Notes: a model not told the origin generated them from the sequence alone. 64,000 nucleotides of DNA from Halocynthiibacter sp. (GCF_049608145.1 NZ_JBMYXF010000011.1:3955-67954); one strand, 5' to 3'. Positions 11,795 to 58,408 are shown, numbered from the stretch's first letter. Numbers and translations: made by a program.

Positions 11795-11881
11795 GCGGTC
11801 GTGGCGGAATTGGTAGACGCGCAGCGTTGAGGTCGCTGTGGGGTAACACCCGTGGAGGTTCGAGTCCTCTCGACCGCACCA
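11795..11881 (+). tRNA. tRNA-Leu(GAG)
   Basis: Acceptor GCGGTCG/CGACCGC, anticodon arm CAGCG-TTGAGGT-CGCTG, long variable arm, GTTCGAGTC, CCA end. Confidence 0.97.
11868..11881 (+). repeat. attL core TCTCGACCGCACCA
   Basis: Identical to 57935-57948. Confidence 0.9.
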
Positions 11882-12041: not shown

Positions 12042-13010
12042 GTGGCCACATTCAAAAAGCTTACATCGGGGAAGTGGCAAGCACAAATTGCGCGGGCTGG
12101 GGTTCGCCGTGCGAAGAGTTTCCCGACAAAATCAGCCGCCAAAGATTGGGCTGCTAGGCAAGAATATCAGATTTCAGAGGGAACTGACAGGCAGGTCGCG
12201 TCCGGTAGGCTTTGGGATTTGTTTGATCGATATGCACGGGAGGTGTCACCAAAGCGTAAAGGCGCAAGATGGGAAATCGTTCGTTTGGAGCGATTGAAGG
12301 GTGAGGATATTGCTAAAAATTCGTTGGCAGAATTGTCACCTCTGATCTTTTCTAAGTGGCGAGACATGCGGCTGGGTGAGGTTTCGCCGGGATCTGTGAT
12401 CCGGGAAATGAACTTGATGTCTGCGGTGCTAACTGTGGCTCGTAAGGAGTGGGGGTTGATTTCTGTCAATCCGCTTTCTGATGTGCGCAAGCCAGCCAAG
12501 CCGCGCCCGCGAGATCGCCTTTTGAAGCCCGGCGAATTGGATAAGTTGTTGGAGCAAGCTGGTTTTGATCTATCAAGGCAGATAGGTCGCGCCGTTCATG
12601 CGTTTCGTTTTGCAATAGAAACCGGAATGAGGGCTGGGGAAATATTGAGCCTGACCTCTGAATTGGTCGATCTTGAGAAGCGTGTGGCAACTTTGACCGA
12701 TACTAAAAACGGCACTGCGCGAAAGGTGCCTTTGTCGAATGCGGCTGTTGAGCTTTTGAAGTTACTCCCGGACGCTCCGACTTACTTTGATTTGTCGTCA
12801 GCGAACCTTGATGCGCTGTTTCGACGGGCGCGTGATAACGCCAAGATCGAAGGCCTTCGGTTTCATGATAGCCGCCATGAGGCGGTGACACGGTTATCTA
12901 GAAAACTCGATGTGTTAAGCCTTGCACGCATGATCGGCCACAAGGATATCAAGATGCTGCAGGTCTATTATAATGAGAGCGCAGAAGATATTGCGAAGCG
13001 CTTAGATTAA
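12042..13010 (+). CDS. int: Tyrosine recombinase / phage integrase
   Basis: ETGMRAGEI, TKNG, FHDSRHE, IGHKDIKMLQVYY catalytic set. Confidence 0.95.
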   Translation: MATFKKLTSGKWQAQIARAGVRRAKSFPTKSAAKDWAARQEYQISEGTDRQVASGRLWDLFDRYAREVSPKRKGARWEIVRLERLKGEDIAKNSLAELSPLIFSKWRDMRLGEVSPGSVIREMNLMSAVLTVARKEWGLISVNPLSDVRKPAKPRPRDRLLKPGELDKLLEQAGFDLSRQIGRAVHAFRFAIETGMRAGEILSLTSELVDLEKRVATLTDTKNGTARKVPLSNAAVELLKLLPDAPTYFDLSSANLDALFRRARDNAKIEGLRFHDSRHEAVTRLSRKLDVLSLARMIGHKDIKMLQVYYNESAEDIAKRLD

Positions 13011-13745: not shown

Positions 13746-14282
13746 CTATGTGCTGGCCGGTTTTGAAATTTGTTGGCGCAGATCCTCTAGGTCAATGAAG
13801 TCATCTGCGCTGCGGCGTAACTGGTCTGAACAAAGGCTTCCGTTCTTAATGGTCGAGACCATGGTCACACGCGTGCCGCGCTCTTGCAGGGCCGTGATCA
13901 GAGGGGCAAAGTCAGCGTTGCCCGTTAGAATAACCACATGATCAAGGTGCTCAGCATGCTTAAGCGCATAGCAAGTCATCAAAACACTGGCATTTCCACG
14001 ATACTGGATCTCACCATCGCTGCCTGTGAAGCTTCGTGTTTGGATGGTTTGTACGTCGAAGCCATTGTACTGCAACCAATCAAACGTTTTGCGCTGGGGG
14101 TTGAACTCGTCAGGGTCGTGATCATTGACTGTTGCAAAGTATTGGACGCGATTTAGGCGACCTTTAGATGCGAATAGGTCTCGCAGGGCTTTGTAATCAA
14201 TCCGCAAATCCATAGCGCGTACAGTTTGATAAAGGCTGTAGCCGTCAATAAACAAGCCTATGCGTTCGGTGTTGTAAAACAT
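13746..14282 (-). CDS. NYN (LabA/DUF88) domain protein with degenerate active site
   Basis: MFYNTERIGLFIDG, DWLQYNGF, LDHVVILTGNADFAPLI..LQERGTRV, LRRSADDFIDL; RBS AAGGA. Confidence 0.85.
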   Translation of the reverse strand: MFYNTERIGLFIDGYSLYQTVRAMDLRIDYKALRDLFASKGRLNRVQYFATVNDHDPDEFNPQRKTFDWLQYNGFDVQTIQTRSFTGSDGEIQYRGNASVLMTCYALKHAEHLDHVVILTGNADFAPLITALQERGTRVTMVSTIKNGSLCSDQLRRSADDFIDLEDLRQQISKPAST

Positions 14283-14399
14283 ATCAATTCCTTGATTTAA
14301 AAGGGCAGGAGGCATGAACAGAAAGCTCTCTGCCAGTGGTCTGGAGGCCGGGAAAGTTTCCTCCTGGATGTGAGGGTTGGAATTCCGGATGGCACGGAT

Positions 14400-14453
14400 G
14401 TTTTGGTACATGTAAAATGTACTGTCAATAACTTTAGTACAAAATAAATGTAC
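14400..14453 (-). promoter_or_regulatory. Early leftward promoter PL with two repressor operators
   Basis: TTGACA on minus strand at 14423-14428; GTACA-N7-TGTAC at 14406-14422 and 14437-14453. Confidence 0.8.
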
Positions 14454-14611: not shown

Positions 14612-15334
14612 ATGGCAAAATTAGTAGACTGTAAAATTTGCAGTAAAGAGGTTTCATCAAAGGCGAAAAACTGCCCTCATTGTGGGCAGAAATTACGATC
14701 AGGTGCCTTTGTTACAATCCTTAAATGGATAGGTATCATTTTGGTTGCTCTAACCGTATTGGGGCTCATTTTGCCCGATCCTGAGGAAGAAACTCAAGCC
14801 TCGCGGGCAATTGATACTCAAGATGTAATTGATGTGGAGCAGCTAGAGCCCGTTGGGGTGGAAGACATTAGGCCTCAATCTCAGATCGATATACTATTGG
14901 CTGTGGATGCTGCAAGATCTGCAGCTAGGCTGGCGGCAAATGATATGCAGAAGGGTGCGGCTTTGGCAGAAAGATCAGCCGCTTTTTGCAATGCCCTTCC
15001 TGGAGGTAAGCGGATTAGTGACTGGACGGGTGAGATTTATAGCATCTCGGCTAATGGTGATGGAAAGGGAGTCTTGGTTGTAACTGTCGGGGATGACGTT
15101 TGGGCTTCGACATGGAATAATGCGCTTTCCGACATTGGAACAAACTCCCTTATTGAGCCAGGGACCGATCTGTTTGCGTCTGTTAGCGCTATGTCTCCCG
15201 GGGATGCTGTGCGATTTTCAGGTGAGTTCTTTACTGACGCTGAGACATGTATGAGTATGCACAACCTCTTTTTTGACGGAAAAATTACCGATCCTGAGTT
15301 TGTATTTAGATTCTCATCAGTGGAAGCTCTCTAG
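14612..15334 (+). CDS. Zinc-ribbon membrane protein with periplasmic domain (moron)
   Basis: CKIC...CPHCG, one TM helix, C-terminal beta-rich domain; own terminator. Confidence 0.75.
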   Translation: MAKLVDCKICSKEVSSKAKNCPHCGQKLRSGAFVTILKWIGIILVALTVLGLILPDPEEETQASRAIDTQDVIDVEQLEPVGVEDIRPQSQIDILLAVDAARSAARLAANDMQKGAALAERSAAFCNALPGGKRISDWTGEIYSISANGDGKGVLVVTVGDDVWASTWNNALSDIGTNSLIEPGTDLFASVSAMSPGDAVRFSGEFFTDAETCMSMHNLFFDGKITDPEFVFRFSSVEAL

Positions 15335-19120: not shown

Positions 19121-19262
19121 GTGTCGTTCCGATATTGACTAATGCACTTGAAGCAGGCAATGTGACCGTGCAGCAGGGGAAATGCTCTGTTGTCGGGATT
19201 GGCGTCCTGTCTATACGTAGGTGCTCTGCTAGCCGCGCCGAAACTCGACGCGGCTTAAATTA

Positions 19263-19340
19263 TGGTCAGATGCGCAGGAGAACCCTCGGGTTCGCCGTTC
19301 CTACGGGCGGTAACGCCAATCCTGTGTCATCTGGCCACCA
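19263..19340 (+). ncRNA. c4-type (P1 C4 / P4 CI-like) antisense RNA
   Basis: Terminal stem TGGTCAGATG/CATCTGGCCA plus 3' CCA; internal TCCTACG and ACGCCAAT complementary to upstream and downstream target pairs. Confidence 0.85.
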
Positions 19341-19386
19341 GAGATTGGCGTCTCGGCGGTCGGTTAAATCCAACCGTAGGAGGCCT

Positions 19387-27902: not shown

Positions 27903-28174
27903 CGATCACCAGTACGGTCAAAATTGGCACAGATCTGATTGATATTTCTAAGCCTTGCGATGTTGTGACGGCGTTGAAGAAAATGCAGTTGAAGCTGGCG
28001 GTTGGTGGTGTGCGCGAAACAGTGCGCATCGATGGTGAAGAAGTCACGTTCATGCGGGCAAATGATCGTCGCTTGGCTGCGTTGACTACACATTACGAAA
28101 GTGAATGCGCCCGGCAAGGTGGCGGCGCAAAGCGAACCCGTTACGCAAAACGCTTTAGAATAGGGAAGTGCTGA
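27899..28174 (+). CDS. gpW-like head-tail joining protein
   Basis: VRIDGEEVTF..AN...L; size and position. Confidence 0.6.
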   Translation: MTITSTVKIGTDLIDISKPCDVVTALKKMQLKLAVGGVRETVRIDGEEVTFMRANDRRLAALTTHYESECARQGGGAKRTRYAKRFRIGKC

Positions 28175-28931
28175 TGAAGACTCCTATCCAGCGCAAGATG
28201 TTCATACATAGTAAGAACAGTATTGCTAGATACGTCAAAGGGTTTGAATAAGCGTTGGTCCATGTGGCAATCTCGAAATTTGCGCGTGTAATAAGAACAA
28301 ATGACCTAATGGCGAAACATGTCGAAACGATGATGATCCTCATCAATAGGAATATCATTGATGAGATAAAACTCATAAACAAGGATATGGACGAAGCGTC
28401 GGTAATGTCCCTTATTTCCAAGCCGCCTAGCGAGTAAGCAAGACCTCTCGAATAAGGACTTAACAGCACAAAAGAAAGATAAACGGCCAGAAAACTGATA
28501 GCACAAAAAAGTAAATCCAAACTCAATTGAATTATTGGGTGGATATGGTGTGTAGGTCCAAAATAGATCGCTCGACTTATATATAAGTTTACGATCATTA
28601 GCGGGACTGAGCCCAAAATCAGAAAAACCAGAAATGGCGGATTTTCTAGGACACGGTACAGGAACCCTTTGCTAAAGAAATTTCCAACAGAAACGACAAC
28701 CAACGTGGTGAAGATAGAGAGTAAAAATACCTTCGACCATTTTATTTTGGTATCCTGAAAGAATATGCTCACCCAAATTGAAACTAAAGATTTTTCAAAT
28801 TGGGATGCGGAAACCTCGTGTAGGCCGAATACAAAATCTGCGATTTGAATTTTTGATTTTGGCGGCGCCATAGCATCAAGAACAGCAAACACACCAGCGA
28901 CTGAAAGAATGTAATAGATTTCGTTGAACAT
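28155..28931 (-). CDS. AT-rich multi-pass membrane protein (moron)
   Basis: 258-aa hydrophobic ORF opposite to the head operon; RBS AAGG. Confidence 0.7.
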   Translation of the reverse strand: MFNEIYYILSVAGVFAVLDAMAPPKSKIQIADFVFGLHEVSASQFEKSLVSIWVSIFFQDTKIKWSKVFLLSIFTTLVVVSVGNFFSKGFLYRVLENPPFLVFLILGSVPLMIVNLYISRAIYFGPTHHIHPIIQLSLDLLFCAISFLAVYLSFVLLSPYSRGLAYSLGGLEIRDITDASSISLFMSFISSMIFLLMRIIIVSTCFAIRSFVLITRANFEIATWTNAYSNPLTYLAILFLLCMNILRWIGVFISTSLF

Positions 28932-47139: not shown

Positions 47140-47537
47140 TGTCCGGTATCATCGCGTTCATGATCAAGATCGGGTTCGGTGGCATGGTCGACAAAGCCAT
47201 TGGCCACATGGAACGCCGGGCAGAACTGGCAAACGACAGTGACCGTTTGCGCGCAGAGACTGCCGTCGAGTTCGCGCGCCAGGCCGTCCAAGAAACGCAA
47301 ATCATGGCGGATTACAACAAAGCCAAACTGTCATTCCCGTGGTTCTGGATCCTTGCAGCGATGTTCATCGTGCCGCTGGCGCTCTGGTGGGCGGCGGTCA
47401 TTCTGGACAGTGTGTTTGGGTTCGCCTGGAATGTGGCGAACCTGCCGACGCCGCAAATGCAGCTATGGGCTGGCGACATGATCAAATGGTTGTTCTACGT
47501 CGGATCGGGTGTCGGTGCGATCAAGGCGTTCCGATAA
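47139..47537 (+). CDS. Membrane protein, putative holin/lysis accessory
   Basis: Coiled segment plus TM helices; coupled to lysozyme. Confidence 0.6.
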   Translation: MSGIIAFMIKIGFGGMVDKAIGHMERRAELANDSDRLRAETAVEFARQAVQETQIMADYNKAKLSFPWFWILAAMFIVPLALWWAAVILDSVFGFAWNVANLPTPQMQLWAGDMIKWLFYVGSGVGAIKAFR

Positions 47538-47629
47538 TAATCTCTGCAGGTGGGGGATCTTCTTCAGGTCTACGTCATTTTTTCCCTTTCAAAATGTTCA
47601 GGTTTACTGAGTAAATCTTGGTTTACGAC

Positions 47630-47658
47630 TTGAGTGATAGGGCCAACGGCCCTATATT
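47630..47658 (+). promoter_or_regulatory. Sigma70 promoter with palindromic operator
   Basis: TTGAGT-17-TATATT enclosing ATAGGGCC-aac-GGCCCTAT (47637-47655). Confidence 0.7.
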
Positions 47659-47701
47659 GAGTGTACAGGGCAACGAAGCCCGCCACGGAAAAGGATTTAA
47701 A

Positions 47702-47899
47702 ATGTCATTCATCAAAACGACCCCCGGAAAAGCCTGCAAGATTGTTTCAATACTGAACGCAGAATGGGTGCAGAAACCCCACTCCTTAGTAAAAGAAGCT
47801 TATGCACTAGACGGCACAATAATTGCCTATACTGATGTAAGCGGTTGGTTCACTGCTAACGCTTACGCCGATGTCGACACATCCGGTGTGGAGGCATAA
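47702..47899 (+). CDS. Small hypothetical protein
   Basis: RBS AAGGA; first gene of three-gene unit. Confidence 0.6.
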   Translation: MSFIKTTPGKACKIVSILNAEWVQKPHSLVKEAYALDGTIIAYTDVSGWFTANAYADVDTSGVEA

Positions 47900-47901
47900 G
47901 C

Positions 47902-48099
47902 ATGGATATTCTGTACGTGATAGCCCCTTGGGGTAGTAATTTGGTAGAATATGCAGAGCGTATTGAGGGGGCGATTGCTCTGGTGTGTTGCATACGCCCA
48001 TCACCATGTGGTCGCTTTATTGTTGTCGCCACTACTGATAGAGCACAGGCTATTCGGTTTCTTGAAGAAGACGGCTTTGATCGTGAGGATGTTTTATAA
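47902..48099 (+). CDS. Small hypothetical protein
   Basis: RBS GGAGG; coupled to HTH gene. Confidence 0.55.
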   Translation: MDILYVIAPWGSNLVEYAERIEGAIALVCCIRPSPCGRFIVVATTDRAQAIRFLEEDGFDREDVL

Positions 48100-48311
48100 T
48101 GAACAATATTGAGTTCAAAAAACTGCGCCAAAAGCTCGGCCTAACCTTGGCTGAGCTTGGTTCAATACTAGATACTGATCCACGTACAATTCGAAAGTGG
48201 GAAGCCGATGGTGCAGCCAGCACGTCGCGTGACCCTAATCCAATTGCTTGCCGGGTTCTGGAATGGCTCCGAGATGGATACCGTCCGTCACAGTGGCCCG
48301 ACGGTAAATAA
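48099..48311 (+). CDS. XRE-family HTH protein
   Basis: FKKLRQKLGLTLAELGSILDTDPRTIRKWE. Confidence 0.85.
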   Translation: MNNIEFKKLRQKLGLTLAELGSILDTDPRTIRKWEADGAASTSRDPNPIACRVLEWLRDGYRPSQWPDGK

Positions 48312-48592
48312 TAAACAGTTCGCCTGTCATTTAGATTGATCCGGTCGTATCGGTTCAGGCTGCGTTGCGGCCTGTCACGCTGAGTGTGGCACGCCACTAT
48401 GTGGTTAAATGTGAAACCCCATCCGAAAAATAGAAATAAATCCATCTTCGCCCTATATAGGGGCGGGGGTAAGCAGTGCTGAAACACTGCATACCATGCA
48501 GCATGCGTTAACAAAGCTGCATCGACGTCCGCTAAGATATCGCCGCCCGACACTCGCGAGTGTGTCAGCGGCTTAATCTGGAATCATCCAAA

Positions 48593-49405
48593 ATGACAAT
48601 GGAAAAAGTGCGCGCTGCCGCACCAGTCGCCCCGTGGTTGGGCGGCAAGAAAACTTTGCATCGTACTCTCATTGAGCGGATCGATGTAATCCCACATAAA
48701 ACATACATTGAACCATTCGTCGGAATGGGTGGTGTATTTCTGCGCCGTTCTTGGCGTCCGCGTCTTGAGGTTGCCAATGACCTCAACGGTGAAATCATCA
48801 ATCTATTCCGCATCTTGCAGCGTCATTATCCGCAGCTCATGGAAGTTATGCGGTTTCAGATTGCGTCACGGCGTGAATTTGATCGCCTACGATCTGTGGA
48901 TCCAGCAACCTTGACGGACCTCGAGCGCGCTGCGCGTTTCCTGTATCTGCAGCGACTGGCCTTTGGTGGTCAGGTGAATGGGGTTTTTGGTGTTGCACCA
49001 ACAAGTGGGCCACGTTTTAGCCTGTCTCGTTTGGAACCGATTCTTGATGCTGCACATGAGCGCCTTGAGGGTGTTGTGTTCGAGACCCTTGATTGGTCGG
49101 CATTGGTGGATCGTTATGACAGTCCTGAATCCTTATTCTATCTGGATCCGCCTTACTTTGGTGGTGAAAGTGATTATGGCAAAGGCATGTTTGGTCGTGA
49201 TCAATTTGCAAAAATGGCAGAACAACTTGCAAGCCTAAAAGGGGCATTTCTTCTCTCGATCAACGACACACCTGAGATCAGAGAAGTGTTCTCAGCATTT
49301 CAGTTTGACGAAGTGCGCCTGAAATATTCAGTAGCTCAGGCTGGCGCAACAGATGCCTGCGAGCTGATTATTTCAAACCGCGAGATCAAGACGGGCTTGC
49401 TGTAG
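48593..49405 (+). CDS. DNA adenine methyltransferase, D12 class
   Basis: PWLGGK, YIEPFVGMGGV, NDLNG, FYLDPPY. Confidence 0.93.
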   Translation: MTMEKVRAAAPVAPWLGGKKTLHRTLIERIDVIPHKTYIEPFVGMGGVFLRRSWRPRLEVANDLNGEIINLFRILQRHYPQLMEVMRFQIASRREFDRLRSVDPATLTDLERAARFLYLQRLAFGGQVNGVFGVAPTSGPRFSLSRLEPILDAAHERLEGVVFETLDWSALVDRYDSPESLFYLDPPYFGGESDYGKGMFGRDQFAKMAEQLASLKGAFLLSINDTPEIREVFSAFQFDEVRLKYSVAQAGATDACELIISNREIKTGLL

Positions 49406-49459
49406 CAAAAACATGCCCTTTCCCGGCGATACATCGGGCGGGAAGGGCGTTCGCAGCAA

Positions 49460-49672
49460 CATGTTCGGAGGGAGCGCTATGGGCAGATAGTGTACTTTGC
49501 AAAGTCGCACCATCGGCCCATTGCTGCCTTTCACCACCACCCCAAGATGCTGCGGTGCGGCCCGTCATTGCGGCCATTCGTGCATCGCGCAGCATTATTT
49601 CGGCTTGAAACGTCGGTGAGTGGACAAACCGGCCTTTCCACATTAGTTTCTGGAGGTCTGCTTTGGGCTTTT
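49460..49672. repeat. Cluster 1 of degenerate palindromic repeats
   Basis: Several imperfect hairpins; ends in GTCTGCTTTGGGCTTTT (49656-49672), identical to 57812-57828. Confidence 0.55.
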
Positions 49673-49674
49673 GT

Positions 49675-50196
49675 TCAGTGAGGTGATCGCCCTGTTGCTA
49701 TCATGAGATGGTGCTGTTGGTGGTGCGCACCGATTGTCATCAGCCCAAAGAAACCCAATCCCAGCACCTGGTTCAACTCTTCTTCTGAACCAGTCTGAAC
49801 CAGCATCGATGCACCGCCTTCCATTTCCCCAGCAGTGACGGCCCAATCCGATGACCCCTGCAACATCGGGCTGTGTGCCAACACCATGCGCCTGATCGAT
49901 GCTGCAACCACCTGATCGCCAGTGACCACGAACGTCGCACTCATTCCATCGACTGTTCGTTCAACCGACGCCCTAGTCGTCACGTTGTCCATATCCACGA
50001 GATGATCACGCAGTGCTTTGATATCGACCTGCGCCCAGTTCGTTTCGGGATTGTCACGCAGCAGTGTGACGATCTCGGCAATCGCAGCGAACTGGGATTG
50101 ACCTGTTTCGCTAGGTGATCCTGACGCATGCGCATGTTGTGCCATGGCATTGGTTGCGACGAACATCATCGCTGCTGATAAAAGACCTAGTTTCAT
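49675..50196 (-). CDS. Secreted His-rich hypothetical protein of the copper cluster
   Basis: Signal peptide, GQSQFAAI.EIV, LRDHLVDMD, GAHHQQHH. Confidence 0.75.
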   Translation of the reverse strand: MKLGLLSAAMMFVATNAMAQHAHASGSPSETGQSQFAAIAEIVTLLRDNPETNWAQVDIKALRDHLVDMDNVTTRASVERTVDGMSATFVVTGDQVVAASIRRMVLAHSPMLQGSSDWAVTAGEMEGGASMLVQTGSEEELNQVLGLGFFGLMTIGAHHQQHHLMIATGRSPH

Positions 50197-50246
50197 TGAA
50201 CACTCCTATTTCTTGATCACCCTAGCCAATTTCAAACTTATCACTT

Positions 50247-50260
50247 ATGATTTGGATCAT
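50247..50260. promoter_or_regulatory. Crp/Fnr-type binding site
   Basis: ATGAT-ttgg-ATCAT between the divergent genes. Confidence 0.55.
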
Positions 50261-50827
50261 ATGTTTTCTGATCCCTTTTCCCATCTACCCGCCGATGCAC
50301 GTCGCACATTAGACATGCGAAAAGGTGACGTGCTGTTTCGCCAGAACCAAACCACATCGGGGCTTTACCGTGTTGTATCTGGATGCGTGACACTGCAACG
50401 AACTGGGCTGGGGGGCGATACCTTGACCCTGCACAGGGCAGTGTCGGGCGGGTTTTTCGCGGAGGCATCAGTCTTCTCGGCGACTTACCACTGTGATGCG
50501 GTATGCACCGAAGCTGGAAATGTCATGAAGATCGCAAAGGCGGATGTCGTTGCAACGATGCAATCCAATCCTGCGTTCTCCGAAGGTTTCACAAGGTTGC
50601 TTGCTGTTCAGGTTCAACAGTACCGCGCACATATCGAGTTGCTGGCAATCCCGTCAGCCAAAGAACGCATACTGGCGGCTGTTAAGGCAGGCTACTTCGA
50701 TGCAACGGTCACCGAGTTGGCGACCCGCATCAATCTTAGCCATGAAGCTTGTTATCGCGCATTGCGGGGACTGTGTGACGACGGTCGCATGATCCGTGTT
50801 TGTCGTGGAAAATATACGCTGTCATAG
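50261..50827 (+). CDS. Crp/Fnr-family regulator
   Basis: KGDVLFRQ, FFAEASVF, C-terminal HTH LSHEACYRAL. Confidence 0.88.
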   Translation: MFSDPFSHLPADARRTLDMRKGDVLFRQNQTTSGLYRVVSGCVTLQRTGLGGDTLTLHRAVSGGFFAEASVFSATYHCDAVCTEAGNVMKIAKADVVATMQSNPAFSEGFTRLLAVQVQQYRAHIELLAIPSAKERILAAVKAGYFDATVTELATRINLSHEACYRALRGLCDDGRMIRVCRGKYTLS

Positions 50828-50855
50828 CGTCCAGTGCTTTTCGGGTAGTTGTCCA

Positions 50856-51281
50856 TCAGTGTGGTGGGGTCCTGCTGGCTTGGACTTCGCGTTCCCGTTC
50901 AGACCAAGTTGATCTGATGTAGGCGAGGATATCCCATATCTCATCATCGGTGAGTGTTTCACCAAATGCGGGCATTCCGCTGTTGAAACCAGTGACACCC
51001 CTGACCTCTAATGCAGCAGCGCCACCGAGCTTGGTGTATTCGAACAGCAGTTCATCATCGTGATGCCACGTGTGGCCCGTCCCATCATGTGGCGGTGCTG
51101 GAAGCACACCATCGGCGTCAGAGGATTGCCAGTTCGGTTGCCCCTCAAGGTTTGCCCCGTGGCATGATGCGCAGTTGCCTGCATACAGGCTTTGTCCCGC
51201 AACAATGTCGCGGTGTTCCCAGTTGTGATCAGCAGCGGCTGTGGAGGCCAAAGACAGCAGGATTGGGATCAGCCACCTCAT
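50856..51281 (-). CDS. Cytochrome c (CorC-like)
   Basis: [24 protein letters not shown]. Confidence 0.88.
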
Positions 51282-52588
51282 GCCACATTCACCCAAGTGC
51301 GCATCCCTCCCACAGCGTGGCTGAGCATGTGACAGTGCAGCAGCCAACGACCAGGGTTGTCGAAGACACAGATGACATCGCGGCTTTCACCTGCGTTCAC
51401 CAAAGTTGTGTCGCGCAGATCGCCCAAAGCTCCGTTCTCTTCAACCTCGTAGAAGTGGTGACCGTGCAGGTGGATGCCGTGCGGGAACGAGGTGTCGTTT
51501 ACAAACGTGATCCGCACAGTCTCGCCATTTTGGAATGATCCGAATGGGTCGCCTTGTAGGTCCGAGACGTTGTTGAAGGCCCAAATATTGTCACCGCCGT
51601 GGCGACCACTCATTGCACCGCCCATCATCGTCAGAGTGAGATGTTGCGTGGGTTCTTCTGGTGTTGGCAGGTTGGGCGGTGACAGAGCCATGATCGCTCC
51701 AGCCTGCCTATCCGTATTGATGCCACTCACAGCGAGATCAGCCAATCGATATGGTCCCTGACGGCTCAGCATATCAAATCCTACAGGCCCCGTGATATCT
51801 ACGATCAGGTCTGCCCGTTGTGCAGGTGCGAGGGTAAGTTCTGTCATAGGACGTGGCTCGGAAAGGGCCATCCCATCCAAGGCCACGACCGATCCAGCGA
51901 CGCCACTAACCTCAACGGGGAAGATACGGTTGGTTGCGGCGTTGATCAGCCGAAACCTAACCCGATCCCCAGTCTTCACCTGATCTTGGGACAGGAAGGC
52001 ACGGGCGAAATTCCCCATGTAACCGCCATGGGCGACACTGTGCATGTCGGTAAACTCATCGGACAGGCTGCCATCTTCCTGCATCTGCCAATCCGCCATC
52101 AACACGGTGATGTCGTGATCAACATCTGGGGGCGTTTCATCCTCAACAATCAACGGACCCATCATGCCACGCGCGACTTGTTCATGAGAAATGTAATGCG
52201 AATGATACCAATAGGTGCCTTCGTCTGGCGGGATAAAGCTGTAGGTTTTGGTGTCGGAAGGTTCGATCAACTCTTGCGTCAACATCGGCACCCCATCCAT
52301 CTGGTTTTCCAACCTGATGCCGTGCCAATGCACTGCGGTGCCTTCCTCAAGACCGTTCTCGACATCGATGTTCACCCGTTCACCGCGCCGCACACGCAGT
52401 TCTGGCCCTGGCATCGACCCGTTGAAGCCCAGCATAGAGGTTACACCATCCCCCAGCGGTAGGATTTGCTGCGTCACCGTTTCGGCCTTCAACCGCAACG
52501 TATCTTGGGCTGCGAATGTGGGCATTGGTAATATCGCTGTGGCTGAGACGGTAGCCAAGAAGTGTCGTCTGTTCATGTGGTGCCTCAT
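51278..52588 (-). CDS. Tat-exported multicopper oxidase
   Basis: [30 protein letters not shown]. Confidence 0.95.
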
Positions 52589-53436
52589 GTTGGCAAAGTT
52601 AGGTTTGTTGTGAGAACAGCGGTCGTTCCCAGCACGGCAAGGATAACCAGCCATTCGACTGAAATGGACTTGGAAAGATGGCCTGCGGCGGCTGGATCGC
52701 CCGCACGAAGCGCAGGTATGAACCGAAGTTTATTGGCAGCAGCCAATCCAAGCAGCAGACCAACCAAAAGCACCTTTATGATCAAAGCCTGCCCGTATCC
52801 TGTGCTAATGAGCGCGGAGAACGAACCGACCAACTCGTACCCCATATAGCCACCCAAGATGATCAGCACTGGGACAGTGACAGTGGCAACAACACCAAAT
52901 CGATACCCCACATCTGCAGCCGAAGCATAGGTGTTGGAAGATGATGCCAAGCGTTTCAGTGGCGTAAGAACACCAATCCACAGCGCAACGGCCAACAAGT
53001 GTAACATCAAAGCGATGTCTAGCAGTGTCGTGTCACGGCTAGAGATGTGGCCCACGTGATCGAATGACCAGATCGCGATGACACCACCCAATACCGAGAC
53101 CCAAGTTCCAACGCGGCCCATGAACAGGCCAGCGATCAACAGACCAAGACCCACCAAACGTAACAGTAATGCGGTACCGACAGGTGTCGTCCATAGCAGG
53201 CCAAGCATCTCAGGATCAGTCATGCCACTGACATCGCCCGTCAGATTGGCTCCGCGCAGTGAAAAGGCGAGGATCGTTGCAATCAACCCCAGAACAGCGA
53301 ATGCCACGGCCAGACCTCGTGTGCGATCCAGCCGAAACATTAACGTTGCCATCACCGTGCCAGCCGCAGTCATCACGCCAAGATAGAGAGCGAATTTTGT
53401 GGCGATGGCCGCCAGACCGAACAGATCAGGCATCAT
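52585..53436 (-). CDS. copD: CopD-family copper membrane protein
   Basis: GH, HLLAVALWIG, YG.AL..K, LAAANKLRF.P. Confidence 0.85.
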   Translation of the reverse strand: MMPDLFGLAAIATKFALYLGVMTAAGTVMATLMFRLDRTRGLAVAFAVLGLIATILAFSLRGANLTGDVSGMTDPEMLGLLWTTPVGTALLLRLVGLGLLIAGLFMGRVGTWVSVLGGVIAIWSFDHVGHISSRDTTLLDIALMLHLLAVALWIGVLTPLKRLASSSNTYASAADVGYRFGVVATVTVPVLIILGGYMGYELVGSFSALISTGYGQALIIKVLLVGLLLGLAAANKLRFIPALRAGDPAAAGHLSKSISVEWLVILAVLGTTAVLTTNLTLPT

Positions 53437-53789
53437 TCTTCGACGGTAAAGCTGAAGGTGCCATTCAAGGCATGGCCATCTGCACCAAGCCCACGCCATT
53501 CAACGACGTACACACCCGCTCCCATGTCATGCATCGGCAACGTAAACTCCTGCGTGAACGCTGTTTGTTCGCCAAGGTCCATGTCCATGCTGTGCGTGTC
53601 GGCATGTGTGATAGCAACCCGCGTCAAACGAATGTCACCTTTGAAGTCCATCAAGACTTCGGTCGGCATCTCCGTGACAGTGGCCTCATTGGTAGGTGTC
53701 GTTGTATCGAGGGGAGAGTGCGCCATTGCGCCCGTTGCCCAAATCCCGATCATGCCTGCGAGTAGAATAGTCTTCATTGCGGTTTCCAA
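53433..53789 (-). CDS. copC: CopC-family periplasmic copper protein
   Basis: AMA/HSPL...P, WRGLGADGH...G.FSF. Confidence 0.88.
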   Translation of the reverse strand: METAMKTILLAGMIGIWATGAMAHSPLDTTTPTNEATVTEMPTEVLMDFKGDIRLTRVAITHADTHSMDMDLGEQTAFTQEFTLPMHDMGAGVYVVEWRGLGADGHALNGTFSFTVEE

Positions 53790-53804
53790 TTTTGTGACTG
53801 GAGA

Positions 53805-54239
53805 TCAGTTGATCCCGTTGGCACGTTGCAGTTCGCGAATATAGGCGATGATCATGGTGACATCGCCCCGTGTTACACCCTCAACGGGGGGCATGTCACC
53901 AAACGGCCAGTGGTGGCCCCGAACGCCCAACTCAGCAGCCCGTTGGAACGCTTCATCGCCGTGGTGGCTGGGTTCATAAATGATGTGGACCAATGGCGGT
54001 GCTACGCCATCTTGACCCGCTGCATTCGCACCGTGGCAAGCAGCACACTTGGCCTCATATCCAAGCTGCCCGATCTGGGCGTTCGGTGACAGGGTTTCGG
54101 GCAACAGCACATTGGCGAGTCCCCCATTCTCCCTACTGATAGCGGTGTCAGAAGCGGCGGTTTGTGGCGCTGAGGGCCACAACACGTAGCCTACGCCACC
54201 CGCAACCAAAATTGCGGCAATTGCGATAGTCGATTTCAT
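53805..54239 (-). CDS. Cytochrome c
   Basis: CAACHG, YEPSHHGD, HHWPFGDMP. Confidence 0.88.
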   Translation of the reverse strand: MKSTIAIAAILVAGGVGYVLWPSAPQTAASDTAISRENGGLANVLLPETLSPNAQIGQLGYEAKCAACHGANAAGQDGVAPPLVHIIYEPSHHGDEAFQRAAELGVRGHHWPFGDMPPVEGVTRGDVTMIIAYIRELQRANGIN

Positions 54240-54270
54240 TGAATGTACTAATCCTCACGTCTTTTGGATA

Positions 54271-54301
54271 TCTTTAATCCTTCCTGTAGGTGGAGGGTCA
54301 A
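54271..54301 (-). promoter_or_regulatory. CueR-type promoter
   Basis: Minus strand TTGACC, 19-bp spacer with CCCTCC-N7-GGAAGG, then TAAAGA. Confidence 0.75.
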
Positions 54302-54309
54302 ACGATTTA

Positions 54310-55062
54310 TTATCGCAGCGTCGTGAGCATCCAGAGCGCCATACCGACCATCATCAGGTTCTCCGTCAGTGACACGAAACCCAATGGAACCTTACTGTCA
54401 CCACCGACACAGGCGCACTTTAGGTCGCGTTTGTCGATGTAGACCGCCTTGAACACACTGATCGCGCCAATGCTGGCGACAAACAACGCTGCTGGTGCAG
54501 ACAACCACGTGAGAACCCCGGCCATCATAAGCAGACCTGCCCCAGTCTCAACGAACGGATAGACATATCCGTAGCGAACCCACCGTTGGGCCAGCAGGTC
54601 GTAGTTCAGGAACATCGTGGCGAACCGTTCTACGTCTTGCAGTTTTTGCAGACCCAACAGCACCATGGATATCGAGATAAACCATTCAACTGTCCGTCCC
54701 GTGAATGCGGCACCTAACGCCAACCAAGTCACAGCTATGGCCATCAACAAAGCGACCGCGAACAATGCGATGACAGGCTTATAGGTCGTGGCATCCTTGG
54801 ACTTGGTGGCTTTTCCTAGATGTACGCTCAGGTCATCGAAACCACCGATGCGTTCTTCACCAATGAACGTCTGTGGCGTCGTCTTCACATCATGCTCGGC
54901 TTTGAACGCATCAACCTCGCCACGGCTGGTGAGGTGGCGATCATCCACTTGAAAGCCCTGACGTTCTAACAGGTCTTTCGATTTCAACCCGTATGGACAC
55001 ATGTGGTCGGTCATCAGCATCCGATAGAGGGTGGCAGTTTTGGCGGCGGTATCCTTGGGCAT
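54310..55062 (-). CDS. Glutaredoxin-MauE/DoxX fusion membrane protein
   Basis: CPYG, TTPQTFI, YDLLA, CACVGG, ENLMM. Confidence 0.88.
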   Translation of the reverse strand: MPKDTAAKTATLYRMLMTDHMCPYGLKSKDLLERQGFQVDDRHLTSRGEVDAFKAEHDVKTTPQTFIGEERIGGFDDLSVHLGKATKSKDATTYKPVIALFAVALLMAIAVTWLALGAAFTGRTVEWFISISMVLLGLQKLQDVERFATMFLNYDLLAQRWVRYGYVYPFVETGAGLLMMAGVLTWLSAPAALFVASIGAISVFKAVYIDKRDLKCACVGGDSKVPLGFVSLTENLMMVGMALWMLTTLR

Positions 55063-55128
55063 GTATCAAATCCTTATGCAGGTGCAGGCATCCATCAAAA
55101 ATGGCACCCTTGAAACTCATTCATCATC

Positions 55129-55159
55129 AACCTAGTCTCTCCAGCAACTGGAAGGTCAA
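55129..55159 (-). promoter_or_regulatory. CueR-type promoter
   Basis: Minus strand TTGACC-ttccagttgctggagagac(19)-TAGGTT. Confidence 0.8.
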
Positions 55160-55170
55160 GGGTAAGTTCT

Positions 55171-55554
55171 ATGAATATCTCTGCGGCATCAAAGGCGGCG
55201 GGCCTTCCCGTCAAAACCGTGCGCTACTACGCCGACATCAAGTTGGTCGAAGCACCGTCGCGATCAGAGGCGGGATACCGCACCTATAACGATGTGGCCG
55301 TTCGCAAACTGGTGTTCGTCAGACGATCACGTGCGTTCGGGTTTAGCATCGAAGGATGCCGCGAACTTCTGAGCCTGTATCAAGATCAGGACCGCACTAG
55401 CTCGGAAGTGAAACGTATCGCGTCCAAGCGACTGGAGGAGATCGAAGAGAAGCAGCGGGAGCTTCAGTCTCTGCATGATGAGTTGGCGCATCTGGTGACA
55501 TCCTGTCGTGGTGACCACATGCCTGACTGTCCAATCATCGATTACCTTGGTTGA
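55171..55554 (+). CDS. cueR: Cu(I)-responsive MerR regulator
   Basis: GLPVKTVRYY, GYRTY, GFSIE, CRGDHMPDCPII. Confidence 0.92.
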   Translation: MNISAASKAAGLPVKTVRYYADIKLVEAPSRSEAGYRTYNDVAVRKLVFVRRSRAFGFSIEGCRELLSLYQDQDRTSSEVKRIASKRLEEIEEKQRELQSLHDELAHLVTSCRGDHMPDCPIIDYLG

Positions 55555-55559
55555 AGTTC

Positions 55560-56050
55560 GAATTTCCGCGTAGCCGACATTCACTGCGCTACAGAAAAAA
55601 CGGGAGTCTGGGCTCGAACTTGCCGTTAGCTGCACTTTGCACCGATGGCCGCTTTGGCGCAGCCTCTGACTGTGCAAATGTCACTTTCTGCCCATTCCTG
55701 ACTTCGGGGTGATGCGCAGCACGGCTGCCGAGCAGGATTGGCCTGTGAATGTCCGCATTCATCATTTTGACGGCGCACCTTCGCAATCGCAGAAAACATC
55801 TGCAATCCACTTGGCGCAGCGAAAGGCAACGACTGCTTCGGGCTGGGTGCTGCCGTTAGACGTGCTTTGCACCAGGTTCGACTCTGGGCCGGTTCTAACT
55901 GACAGCGTACAAATTGGATTGCCTTTAAACTTCGATAAGTGAGCGTGATACCAATGCACCGTGTCTAAGCAGTATTTCCAAAGGCAGAGTGACTGTTGAG
56001 TAGACGGAGTGATGTTTCTCTGGAGTTGCGCCAATGGCTGCTTTTGGGTG
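55560..56050. repeat. Cluster 2 of degenerate palindromic repeats
   Basis: AACGGGAGT..ACTTGCCGTT, AACGACTGC..GCTGCCGTT; GCCGTTAG-N5-CTTTGCACC at 55622 and 55852. Confidence 0.55.
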
Positions 56051-56139
56051 TCTAGAATACTCAAAATCGGACCAAAATGCGGTGCTTCCAAATATCGACT
56101 TTCAAGCAGGATGCGCTACACTAGAAGTGATTCAAACAA

Positions 56140-57399
56140 ATGCATACGGTCAATTTTGGAGATACCCCCATGGTAGATTTTAATCAATTTTCAGACAGTC
56201 TTGCTCAGTTCCAGGAGGAGTTCTCAACAGAACTCATGGATTTGGAATGGGTCGCGGTTGAGCTGCATGTGGGTTTGGACACCACAAGTCCAGAGATCGT
56301 TGTTAAGCTCGCTGGCAACAAGGATTCGATACCAAGTTCGTTGCGTTCTGGATCGGTTTTCGAACATGAAGGTCGAAGTTACTCTATCCGAATGATGGCC
56401 GGCAGAGAAATCGTTGCTCAGGTTAAAGCGGGAACTGCTGCACGGCCTGAGGGAGCTCCATATTATGGGACGTACGGAGCCCCTATAGTGATAAATGGGG
56501 TGTACGTCGCAATATCAAATTGGCATGTTTTCTGCAAGAATGGGAACAGATCGAAAATCGGAGATAGAATACAGATTGACGGAAAAACGATCGCATCTCT
56601 GTATGATTTCGAACCGGTAAACGAGTTTGGAAACAACGAGTATGACATTGCATTCGCAGAGTTCGACGACCCTGATGATATTGAAGCTAGATTTCGGGAA
56701 TGCTCAAATGGTTCACGTCTTCGATTTCCGCGGCGACTAGCCTGGAGTGTTGAGTTCGGCAAGGCGCATTATACCGTCGGTGCTCGCTCCCCAGTTTGCG
56801 GTCATGGAAAATTACTGGGTGTTGCAAATATCCGAGTGAAATACGGAAATGGCCGGGTAATCCCCTTCTCAAATCAACTAATGTTCTCAAAAATGTCCGA
56901 TCGAGGCGATAGTGGCTCAATTGTTGTTGACGAGGAGCGGCATGAAGCTGTCGGTCTGATTTTTGCCGGTGACGACGAATCTAGTTACGCAAACTTTCTA
57001 CCCGGCTACCCAGGTTTTTTGACAAGGGGCAGCATAGATCTAGGGCAATCGGCGTCTTTGATGAGCTTTTCGCATCAACCGGTGATGCGAAAGGATGAAG
57101 TTCTATTTGGCGGAAACAATTCTATCTCGATGGATATGCCTTTTGAGAAGGATGGAGGAGTGCCGTCAATTGATAGAGAATCCTTTCCTCGAGAACTGAT
57201 TGACCCAAAAAAGAGATTGAAACTTTTTAACATAGATGGAAGTAAGCAAATTCGGGTTATTGACGCCCAAGGGAGTTGGGTCAAGGCTCAGATATTCGGC
57301 CGACGCGACCACCGACCTGGTCATGGCATAGAATACTATCTTGCTGCCACTGGCTTTTTTAACGTCAATGCACCAACCCGATTGTTCTATTTAGTTTAG
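56140..57399 (+). CDS. Trypsin-like serine protease (Nal1-like)
   Basis: Triad motifs ISNWHVF, YDIAFA, RGDSGS; AVGLIFAG. Confidence 0.8.
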   Translation: MHTVNFGDTPMVDFNQFSDSLAQFQEEFSTELMDLEWVAVELHVGLDTTSPEIVVKLAGNKDSIPSSLRSGSVFEHEGRSYSIRMMAGREIVAQVKAGTAARPEGAPYYGTYGAPIVINGVYVAISNWHVFCKNGNRSKIGDRIQIDGKTIASLYDFEPVNEFGNNEYDIAFAEFDDPDDIEARFRECSNGSRLRFPRRLAWSVEFGKAHYTVGARSPVCGHGKLLGVANIRVKYGNGRVIPFSNQLMFSKMSDRGDSGSIVVDEERHEAVGLIFAGDDESSYANFLPGYPGFLTRGSIDLGQSASLMSFSHQPVMRKDEVLFGGNNSISMDMPFEKDGGVPSIDRESFPRELIDPKKRLKLFNIDGSKQIRVIDAQGSWVKAQIFGRRDHRPGHGIEYYLAATGFFNVNAPTRLFYLV

Positions 57400-57450
57400 T
57401 GCTCCCTATGCCCGCCCTAAAGCAAAAAGAGTATAGTTTGGATAGGTCTA

Positions 57451-57828
57451 AAAGTTGGCTCCACCGCGAGCCAACTTTCGTCCAGTGTAAAAAAAAACAG
57501 ATCAGTTGTGTTGTGACATAATCGGCACCTTTGACACCGGGTTCACTTCGTCTAAAATCACTGAGTGCTCTTGCCCTACAAAACTTTTGCAGCCCTCCGT
57601 TTCTCTTTAACAAGGTTTTGACGACTGTTCGAAAACCGGACATTCGTTCCAAAAGCAGTGTGACGCAAGAGGGGCTCAGAGCCCCCTTGCAGCAATGCAA
57701 TGAATTTCTTGCTTTAATGCGTATGTGAATGTCGGCTTTCGACTTTGAGGTTTTGATCGGTTCGCGCCTGCGGAGAAAATCCGGTTTCTGCCCGACGTGC
57801 AGATCGATCATGTCTGCTTTGGGCTTTT
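57451..57828. repeat. Cluster 3 of degenerate palindromic repeats
   Basis: AAAGTTGGCTC-caccgc-GAGCCAACTTT (57451-57478), ACCGGACATTC, GAATGTCGGCTTT, GTCTGCTTTGGGCTTTT. Confidence 0.5.
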
Positions 57829-57934
57829 AGCGCGGCTTTTGTTGTGCCTTAGATTATGGATTTGCAATACATGTGTTACGATATTTTTACGAACTTATGT
57901 TTTAGTAATCTGATAAATAGTATAAAAAGGTGCA

Positions 57935-57948
57935 TCTCGACCGCACCA
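57935..57948 (+). repeat. attR core TCTCGACCGCACCA
   Basis: Duplicate of tRNA-Leu 3' end. Confidence 0.9.
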
Positions 57949-58408
57949 TTTCACATTATGATGTGAAGTTCGCTGAAAATTCAAAAATTACAGACACTTG
58001 AGAAGCTCGATAGTTGTTTTATCGGTCATAGGCCAGTGGCCTTGCAAAGGCCGTTTTCTGGATGGCTTTCTTCACAATTAGGGATCCATTTTCATATTTG
58101 TTCCAACCATGCGATCGACAGGTGCATTCTGCTGTTTATCGGAGGGGATCCGCCGCCTTTACGGTGGAAAACCTTTTTCAAAAAAGCCTGAAAACCGCGG
58201 CCCCTGTTGAGGCGGATTAGCAGATATAGCTTTCGGCTGTGTCCCAGGGCTTTGATATTGGGATAACCATGAATTTTTCGTGTTTATAAATGGTGCCAGG
58301 CAAAACCCCGCTCTGCGCATCTGTGAACACAAACTGTTTACTGCCACCGAATTGATCTCGTGGCATGATCATATCAAGTTTACTCCGAACTTATAAAGGA
58401 TCACAGTT

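What the first reader, a model, noticed from the sequence alone, without database searches (positions are those of the whole stretch)
49460..57830. Cargo organised as cassettes bounded by clusters of degenerate palindromic repeats, with no transposase or integron integrase
Seen: three non-coding clusters (49460-49672, 55560-56050, 57451-57828) of related imperfect hairpins of the form AAyGnCnGCTTyGGGC..GCnGnCrTT. The copper block begins right after a left half-unit (GTCTGCTTTGGGCT, 49656) and ends just before a right half-unit (GCGTAGCCGACATTC, ~55568). The protease gene follows another left half (AATGGCTGCTTTTGGGT, 56033-56049). A 17-bp exact repeat GTCTGCTTTGGGCTTTT occurs at 49656 and 57812, and GCCGTTAG-N5-CTTTGCACC at 55622 and 55852. 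Inference: genes are inserted at or near the centre of these palindromes by a recombinase acting in trans, forming an integron-like cassette platform at the prophage end. The units are degenerate, so the boundaries are approximate.
Basis: partly seen in the sequence, partly recalled or inferred. Interest (0 to 1): 0.7.

Follow-up and report, generated by a model that had tools for sequence, protein, structure and literature searches.

The report
Swappable copper cassette between recombinase sites
At the end of a prophage in a marine bacterium, a 6-kb copper-resistance gene block is bounded by short DNA sites where related DNA breaks off exactly; the sites belong to the same family as the repeats around a swappable gene of E. 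coli phage P2, and a tiny, little-studied recombinase encoded elsewhere likely does the swapping.

Summary
The repeats are real, and cargo changes at them. They are 30-bp sites (12-6-12: two degenerate arms around a 6-bp core), not hairpins: the arms do not covary. A zero-mismatch copy in another study's metagenome starts and stops in these cores with other flanks, as do copies in other roseobacter genomes. A sister prophage carries different cargo there. The protease gene is a second cassette. A matrix trained on Rhodobacteraceae sites picks the annotated P2 Z/fun inverted repeat. A ~210-aa catalytic-domain-only tyrosine recombinase is bracketed by these sites at fixed distances in Rhodobacteraceae, and by the P2-type sites in E. 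coli. It is the likely enzyme, acting in trans; this is inferred, not assayed. The system works like Acinetobacter dif modules and fails integron tests. I found no paper linking enzyme and sites. This scan reported the same system in at least eight other genomes.

The parts
11795..11881 (+). tRNA-Leu, the prophage's integration target (attL side); phage integrase follows at 12042-13010
48593..49405 (+). dam-type adenine methyltransferase, last conserved prophage gene before the variable region
   Evidence: 93% nucleotide identity to the prophage in G002 runs to 49447 and stops
49469..49498 (+). Site S1, core GGGCAG at 49481-49486
   Evidence: matrix score 18.9; same site follows dam in L021
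49502..49531 (-). Site S2, core at 49514-49519; left end of a gene-less linker module
   Evidence: 40 of the 51 family-wide matches that begin at query positions 90-130 begin at 49513 or 49514
49514..49625 (.). Gene-less linker module of about 112 bp between S2 and S3
   Evidence: cluster 1 matches 86 of 300 family genomes, mostly through this module
49608..49637 (.). Site S3, core at 49620-49625 (GCGGAC type): true left end of the copper cassette
   Evidence: identical copies begin at 49622 in runs X10, X14, X15, X18, X19; identity to 5 other genomes 25-38 of 40 inside, 8-13 of 40 outside
49653..49671 (+).
   Evidence: same arm 10-12 bases from that stop codon in 7 site-bounded relatives
49675..55554 (.). 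Copper cargo, nine genes: unknown protein, Crp-type regulator, cytochrome c, multicopper oxidase, CopD, CopC, cytochrome c, glutaredoxin-MauE, CueR-type MerR regulator
   Evidence: Pfam; the first gene has no Pfam, NCBIfam, PADLOC or PHROG hit
55552..55581 (-).
   Evidence: kept in L092, L099, L105, L106
55598..55627 (.). Site S4, core GGGCTC at 55610-55615: true right end of the copper cassette
   Evidence: identical copies end at 55615 (X10, X14, X15, X19) or 55618 (X18, X19) and go on into other arms; same break in 4 genomes
55628..55985 (.). Chain of gene-less linker modules with sites at 55676-55705, 55828-55857 and weaker ones at 55644 and 55874
   Evidence: pieces recur separately in G000 and G001-G003
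55986..56015 (.). Degenerate site S9, core near 55998-56003: left end of the protease cassette
   Evidence: alignment to the homologue in G321 starts at 55997; one relative only
56033..56049 (+).
   Evidence: same arm at the same place in L269
56170..57399 (+). Trypsin-like serine protease gene, 409 aa (His119, Asp159, Ser248 in GDSGS), low GC
   Evidence: found in 1 of 400 other family genomes
57660..57689 (.). Degenerate site S10, core GGGCTC at 57672-57677: likely right end of the protease cassette
   Evidence: alignment to L269 runs to 57693 and has a site here; one relative only
57776..57838 (+). Two further sites (57776-57805, 57809-57838); the second holds the second copy of the 17-mer
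57935..57948 (+). attR core: 14-bp copy of the tRNA-Leu 3' end (11868-11881)

Best explanation
The repeats are 30-bp double-stranded sites (two degenerate 12-bp arms around a 6-bp core) at whose cores gene modules are joined, and they are likely recombined by a family of ~210-aa tyrosine recombinases that lack the usual core-binding domain and would act here in trans. Shown: modules end at the cores; a given module end keeps its core type while the arm and DNA beyond it change; both cassettes here have a GCGGAC-type core on the left and a GGGCTC core on the right; the recombinase gene is itself a module between such sites. Inferred: recombination needs matching cores, as for Cre/lox and XerCD/pdif. 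A single cassette has two different cores, so it cannot simply loop out; it would move in two steps (join at one core, resolve at the other) or leave together with a neighbouring linker between two like cores. New genes would be captured at weak chance matches near gene ends, which would leave the inner half-sites. The stretch between dam and attR is a landing pad that the phage then carries between hosts.
For: Breakpoints: 0-mismatch copper block 49622-55615 in run X10 (three overlapping contig pieces) with foreign flanks that are themselves arms; same ends in X14/X15 (probably one data set), X18, X19. Five other genomes break at the left core and four at the right core. The sister prophage in G002 keeps dam and cluster 1 but holds three other genes. 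Geometry: in 169 pairs of sites sharing only one flank, identity is 0.90-0.95 at positions 13-18 and 0.42 at position 19; 19,630 unrelated pairs give 0.34-0.92 at 13-18. Successive sites are spaced 46 bp (24 times) or 33 bp (11 times) among 99 close pairs. No arm covariation. Enzyme: a site over 15 bits lies within 300 bases of 19 of 43 homologues, against 35 of 2,786 G000 ORFs, 2 of 26 other tyrosine recombinases and 2 of 24 IS110 genes. In 29 close homologues a GGGCTC-type core sits 139-142 bases upstream in 19, and its reverse form 74-78 bases downstream in 18. R61, K89, H158, R161, H184, Y193 are invariant with XerD. In E. coli and Pantoea the gene is bracketed by the two P2 repeat types. 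Enzyme and linker module co-occur: 49 of 86 against 60 of 214 genomes, odds ratio 3.4. G000 has a homologue at C18:7-405 with a site behind it.
Against: No recombination was assayed. The enzyme could be one more passenger: it lay within 3 kb of a strong site in only 2 of 89 loci, IS110 in 5. 24 of 43 homologues had no site over 15 bits, including all 9 plasmid copies from outside Rhodobacteraceae (the two enterobacterial ones scored 14.4 and 10.6; Vibrio, Pseudoalteromonas, Methylomonas, Cupriavidus and Rhizobium copies scored under 7). 37 of 86 genomes with the module had no enzyme hit, and kin and genome size are not controlled. The G000 copy is cut by a contig end, so its integrity is unknown. 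No excision joint or empty site was listed in 8 laid runs, all contigs, with cut tables. 23 of the 30 closest copper blocks are not site-bounded (classes assigned partly by eye). The 169 pairs are not independent, and the matrix was trained on the same loci.
Confidence: 0.7

Rival explanations
1. The sites are real crossover points but are worked by a host enzyme (XerC/XerD or another conserved tyrosine recombinase), as for Acinetobacter dif modules; the small recombinase is only one more cassette.
For: 6-bp core and trans action are Xer-like. G000 has two XerC/D-like genes. Many site-bearing genomes gave no hit to the small enzyme.
Against: The arm motif shows no likeness to XerC/XerD arms as I recall them (not tested against a dif model). 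The small gene keeps sites at fixed distances from Rhodobacteraceae to enterobacteria, with site type following the lineage, which ordinary cargo such as the copper block does not do.
Confidence: 0.1
2. The sites are the ends of an IS-sized autonomous element that carries only the small recombinase. Clusters are scars of its repeated insertion and loss, and cargo moves only as a passenger between nearby copies, not as a cassette in its own right.
For: The recombinase unit is about 0.7-0.85 kb with fixed ends; 736 of 5,426 E. coli genomes hold most of it. Gene-less linker modules look like scars.
Against: The copper block has both ends exchanged at cores with no recombinase gene beside it in the window and in most site-bounded relatives (L094 is the exception). 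Cassette ends have a regular inner half-site and fixed core polarity.
Confidence: 0.1
3. Cargo is swapped by homologous recombination (RecA or phage-encoded) between conserved repeat clusters; no dedicated enzyme exists.
For: Clusters are mosaics of shared 50-180-bp modules at 75-90% identity, enough for relaxed phage recombinases.
Against: Homology stops at a base-precise position, the edge of the 6-bp core, and the DNA outside is unrelated (8-13 of 40 identical; profile). Crossovers by homology would scatter along the modules.
Confidence: 0.06
4. The repeats are MITE or IS ends, or single-stranded hairpin targets of an HUH or IS110-type enzyme.
For: IS110 genes were the commonest mobile neighbours (5 of 89 loci); G000 has one Y1 transposase.
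Against: No arm covariation and no folding advantage (-3.2 against -3.3 kcal/mol). No duplication outside the cassette. Only 2 of 24 IS110 genes have a site nearby. No Rfam match in the region. ISfinder could not be searched.
Confidence: 0.04

Closest known systems
Inverted repeats of the P2 Z/fun locus (Nilsson et al. 2004, PMID 12949155; not held in the library; cited through PMC8987985, passages read; GenBank AJ512676, AJ512682, AJ512683, AJ512685 annotate 'left' and 'right inverted repeat')
   Same: Same site family: a matrix trained only on Rhodobacteraceae scores the P2 left repeat 21.6 bits, the best hit in 10 kb of P2, with 0 null hits over 20 bits. P2-like phages lose homology at these sites: 28 of 45 listed rows end in or just past the left site, 24 of 45 begin at or just before the right site. 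Two different cores bound the cargo. The review states that the repeats enable site-specific exchange of fun.
   Different: Here an alphaproteobacterial prophage, multi-gene metal-resistance cargo, chains of gene-less linkers and inner half-sites. The passages I read name no enzyme; the 2004 paper itself I could not read. The P2 right repeat scored only 9.2 bits.
dif modules (pdif, XerC/XerD) of Acinetobacter plasmids (PMC13141974, abstract and passages read)
   Same: Modules bounded by tyrosine-recombinase sites with a 6-bp spacer; empty modules; enzyme in trans; single modules replaced while the left spacers match one another and the right spacers match one another; movement by cointegrate formation and resolution.
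   Different: Arms are a different, much more degenerate motif, not separate C and D boxes; sites come in clusters with 33- and 46-bp spacing; chromosomal islands and prophages, not one plasmid family; the candidate enzyme is a mobile catalytic-domain-only protein.
Integrons and CALINs (defining features recalled)
   Same: Arrays of unrelated accessory genes between repeats, stop codons close to the sites, enzyme often absent.
   Different: No IntI, no attC R''/R' pair around any of 236 site hits, no hairpin covariation, cassettes in mixed orientation and up to nine genes long.
Described tyrosine-recombinase subgroups (PMC8138268, passages read; PMC3414803, passages read)
   Same: Catalytic residues of the superfamily are intact; best NCBIfam hits are XerC/XerA models, far below cut-off.
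   Different: About 100 N-terminal residues of XerD have no counterpart. The passages I read describe no subgroup of this size tied to such sites; their supplements were not read and may list these proteins. FimB/FimE-type invertases are of similar size (weak hit).

Membership tests
Integron / CALIN | IntI integrase in the genome or beside the array | tested here: not met
   0 of 7 matches over the TIGR02249 cut-off in G000; assembly 89% complete
Integron / CALIN | attC sites with RYYYAAC...GTTRRRY ends (motif recalled) | tested here: not met
   0 of 236 site hits have such a pair around them
Integron / CALIN | Sites fold as single-stranded hairpins, so arms covary | tested here: not met
   4.71 against 4.69 of 12 paired positions in 214 sites
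dif modules (pdif/XerCD) | 6-bp spacer kept between recombining partners | tested here: met
   identity 0.90-0.95 at positions 13-18, 0.42 at 19; cores kept at both copper-cassette ends
dif modules (pdif/XerCD) | Arms are XerC and XerD binding sites | tested here: inconclusive
   the arm matrix does not resemble the dif arms as I recall them; no dif model was run
dif modules (pdif/XerCD) | Recombination catalysed by host XerC and XerD | not testable with these tools
   needs mutants
P2 Z/fun inverted-repeat family | Sequence kinship of the site | tested here: met
   21.6 bits for the P2 left repeat with a matrix that never saw it; 9.2 bits for the right repeat
P2 Z/fun inverted-repeat family | Unrelated cargo replaced between two sites in related phages | tested here: met
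   window against L021 and L022; P2-like phages
MITE / IS ends | Target-site duplication and a cognate transposase | tested here: not met
   no duplication outside the copper cassette; 2 of 24 IS110 genes near a site; no transposase family hit in the region; ISfinder not available
REP/RAYT (HUH) systems | Conserved hairpin repeats clustered around a Y1 transposase | tested here: not met
   no covariation; the one Y1 gene of G000 is on C83, where no site over 15 bits was listed
Tyrosine recombinase (candidate enzyme) | R-K-H-R-H-Y catalytic set | tested here: met
   invariant in 10 aligned sequences including the XerD-like protein of G000
Tyrosine recombinase (candidate enzyme) | Acts on these sites | not testable with these tools
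   association only

The most novel reading that the evidence does not exclude
Proteobacteria share an old, undescribed cassette-exchange system, independent of integrons and Xer. A mobile, catalytic-domain-only tyrosine recombinase swaps modules between degenerate lox-like sites by core matching (natural recombinase-mediated cassette exchange) and captures new genes at gene ends. It stocks prophage ends and islands with defence and metal-resistance genes from roseobacters to E. coli, and it is the missing enzyme of the P2 Z/fun hotspot.
Probability: 0.55. Interest if true: 0.85.

Novelty: new variant of a known kind. Interest (0 to 1): 0.72.

Why it matters
It turns a 20-year-old proposal (site-specific exchange at the P2 Z/fun repeats, with no enzyme named in the passages I could read) into a direct test, with a named 200-210-aa candidate and defined 30-bp substrates. 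Two papers on P2 and P4 defence hotspots (PMC9122126, PMC13586616; term searches of the main text) contain none of the words palindrom-, inverted or integron, so the mechanism appears unexploited there. Alphaproteobacteria are reported to be nearly free of integrons (recalled, not checked here); this would be their way of swapping cassettes, seen here moving a nine-gene copper block without one mismatch between hosts. A 210-residue recombinase with core-specific sites would also be a compact tool for cassette exchange.

Tried and rejected
A strict palindrome pattern found only 2 true units among 21 hits in G000: the units are too degenerate for it. Cluster 2 and the copper block had no match in 72,556 plasmids. 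The first cargo gene had no relative in viral contigs; a 25-base pattern of the left end found nothing in JGI metagenomes. The protein atlas did not answer twice. The window's phage integrase found no other recombinase in G000 by phmmer and is not the candidate: it and 5 relatives have no sites in their flanks. An 8.16-kb unit bounded by the 17-mer: no joint listed in 8 laid runs, not supported. Runs X18-X20 were chosen as possible empty versions; they held only the copper block or pieces of it. X17 and X20 listed no loose end at the cores. A tree of the first cargo gene (30 of 71 loci plus the window) does not group the site-bounded copies (L106 is sister to a copy in another context, 100/99), but 13 of 28 branches are open and no one-clade test was run, so single versus repeated capture is undecided. 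The C8 paralogue in G000 (37%, whole) has no sites beside it. Literature: 10 full-text searches listed no paper that, by title or abstract start, describes these sites with this enzyme; most subscription papers are outside the library, and no supplements were read.
Full report
Setting. The window holds a prophage inserted in tRNA-Leu (11795-11881), with an integrase at 12042-13010, head and tail genes and a 14-bp attR core at 57935-57948. Between dam (ends 49405) and attR lie a nine-gene copper block (49675-55554) and a 409-aa ORF (56170-57399) with a trypsin-like catalytic triad, separated by three non-coding clusters. The genome is a Rhodobacteraceae/Roseobacteraceae-type assembly by its relatives, 89% complete.

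The observation. Related sequence lies on C2, C16, C22, C37, C38, C42, C50 and C58 of the same genome. I trained a 30-position matrix on cluster regions (52 sites; refined to 214). The left arm consensus is AAnG(G/T)CnG(C/G)(T/A). In G000 the first matrix gives 12 hits over 20 bits, several of them training sites, against 0 in a 1.6-Mb Markov control. The fair test is a matrix built without this genome: 7 hits in the 1,419 non-coding bases, 0.03 in shuffles, 1 in the rest of the window. The two arms of a site pair no better than arms dealt at random, so these are double-stranded dyads and not hairpins.

Where cargo changes. (1) A prophage in a same-genus genome (L021) is 93% identical through dam up to 49447, keeps a related cluster 1, and then carries three other genes; L022 has another gene behind dam. 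(2) I laid 8 of 24 listed runs. X10, from another study, holds 49622-55615 with 0 differences, in three overlapping contig pieces, and both ends run on into other DNA that begins with an arm. The left end recurs in X14, X15, X18 and X19; the right end at 55615 in X14, X15, X19 and at 55618 in X18, X19. X14 and X15 look like one data set, so this is about four studies. 49622 is inside the core 49620-49625, whose second base differs in the window; 55615 is the last base of the core 55610-55615. (3) Of 71 genome loci with the first cargo gene I classed the 30 closest: 7 site-bounded, 9 behind tRNA-Tyr, 6 in a third shared context, 8 other (partly by eye). In 5 site-bounded ones tested at the left end, identity to the window is 25-38 of 40 inside the core and 8-13 of 40 outside; 4 tested at the right end break after the same core. 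(4) The protease gene has one relative among 400 family genomes; alignment begins at 55997 and runs to 57693, both at degenerate sites.

Geometry. Among 213 sites with flanks, 169 pairs share one flank only. Their identity is 0.64 at position 12, 0.90-0.95 at 13-18 and 0.42 at 19; unrelated pairs give 0.34-0.92 at 13-18. Most module-end families keep one or two core types, and junctions join ends of like core; three families were mixed. Across 300 family genomes, 86 match cluster 1, and 40 of the 51 matches starting near S2 start at its spacer edge. A 6-bp overlap between protein-binding arms is the layout of Cre/lox (PMC6379469, passage) and of pdif (PMC13141974, passages). Both cassettes here have different left and right cores, so simple looping out is not expected; the dif-module paper describes the same situation and a cointegrate route.

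Known relatives. The first matrix picks the P2 repeat left of fun(Z) as best hit in 10 kb (21.6 bits; the right repeat 9.2). GenBank records of P2-EC phages annotate these as left and right inverted repeat, and P2-like phages lose homology there. A review states that these repeats enable site-specific exchange of fun, citing Nilsson et al. 2004 (PMC8987985, passages); I could not read that paper.

The enzyme. An unbiased look at ORFs within 3 kb of strong sites in 89 loci found five tyrosine recombinases; two, about 115 bases from a site, were small and related. This family is in 109 of 300 family genomes, 404 plasmids from many Proteobacteria, 736 of 5,426 E. coli genomes at 80% cover or more and 3 of 50,697 phages. 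It keeps the catalytic set and lacks about 100 N-terminal residues of XerD. A site over 15 bits is within 300 bases of 19 of 43 homologues (2 of them in the training set), 35 of 2,786 G000 ORFs, 2 of 26 other tyrosine recombinases and 2 of 24 IS110 genes. Among 29 close homologues the core sits at a fixed distance upstream in 19 and downstream in 18, and it is the GGGCTC core that also ends both cassettes in this window. In E. coli and Pantoea plasmids the gene lies between the two P2 repeat types (21 of 23, 16 of 17 and 16 of 17 identical bases). G000 has a copy cut by the start of C18, with a site behind it. Against: most sites have no enzyme beside them, 24 of 43 homologues miss the threshold, distant plasmid copies show no site with this matrix, and the co-occurrence (odds ratio 3.4) is not corrected for kinship.

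Mechanism. Shown: module ends at 6-bp cores, core retention, no hairpin covariation, a site-bounded recombinase gene. Inferred: core-matched double-stranded recombination by this enzyme in trans, two-step cassette replacement, and capture at weak sites near stop codons. Capture is suggested by the copper block occurring elsewhere between two copies of the tRNA-Tyr 3' end without sites (L091, L096, L100, L101) and by the arm lying 10-12 bases from the stop codon in site-bounded copies; the tree does not give the order of events.

Novelty. The site family is in print for P2, and the way of working is that of dif modules. It fails the integron tests. Ten searches of the paper library listed nothing on these sites with this enzyme. 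After I had reached the enzyme, a look-up showed that this scan had described the same system in at least eight other genomes (unchecked AI notes, not counted as evidence), and two earlier notes had tied P2-like prophage repeats to cargo ends but were later marked in doubt. This locus adds a zero-mismatch multi-gene cassette in several contexts, base-level core mapping, and a sequence link from alphaproteobacterial sites to the P2 repeats and their candidate enzyme. Verdict: a new variant of a known kind, interest 0.72.

Noticed in passing
L091, L096, L100, L101 (also L089, L102, L103, L108, L110 at the left end): The same copper block sits directly behind tRNA-Tyr; in four loci a second copy of the tRNA 3' end follows cueR, 5.7-6.2 kb away, with no tyrosine recombinase found between them: a non-autonomous tRNA island.
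   Followed up: partly
window 57951-58046, run X4: The same prophage end (0 differences from 47500 to 57951) occurs in another study, in a host whose DNA beyond attR differs at 63 of about 955 bases and which has a further 15.4-kb insert directly behind attR.
   Followed up: no
L021:3800-6870: A sister prophage (dam 93% identical) ends at tRNA-Met instead of tRNA-Leu, carries a CDP-alcohol phosphatidyltransferase-like, a cytidylyltransferase-like and a 2OG-Fe(II) oxygenase-like gene (named by eye from translations), and has a decayed second copy of the dam 3' end near its att.
   Followed up: partly
L047, L051, L056, L057, L071, L021, L022: Site-like sequence follows dam within about 250 bases in 7 of the 31 other dam loci printed (by eye): the dam end looks like a general landing pad in these phages.
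   Followed up: partly
G000 C38:787-5419; C18:7-1960; C50:19102-19200; C16:59896; C4:3841: Other site clusters separate a nuclease, a GntR regulator, a SoFic-like Fic gene and unknown ORFs (C38); a PD-T7-1-like defence gene lies between the small recombinase and a site near tniQ (C18); sites follow a cytosine methyltransferase (C50), gyrB (C16) and guaB (C4).
   Followed up: partly
G000 C8:75370-76002: A whole 210-aa paralogue of the small recombinase (35-37% identical, catalytic set intact) with no sites in its flanks, next to a resolvase-domain ORF.
   Followed up: partly
window 49675-50196 (-): A 173-aa protein with a His-rich end and no family hit in four libraries, found in 71 genome loci, nearly all alphaproteobacterial, and beside the copper genes in most Rhodobacteraceae loci examined.
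   Followed up: partly
window 19258-19342 (+): C4 antisense RNA (RF01695, 58.7 bits) inside the prophage replication region.
   Followed up: no
window 13746-14411, 14612-15334, 28155-28931: Further likely accessory genes of the prophage: a NYN-domain nuclease and two ORFs in low-GC stretches without family hits; no site over 12 bits flanks them with the refined matrix.
   Followed up: partly
window 57451-57479: An 11-6-11 near-perfect palindrome behind the protease gene, kept in L269; it may be a terminator or a further site.
   Followed up: no
L094:2400-3300: Here a shortened copper cassette is joined directly, at its GGGCTC-type end, to the recombinase module.
   Followed up: yes
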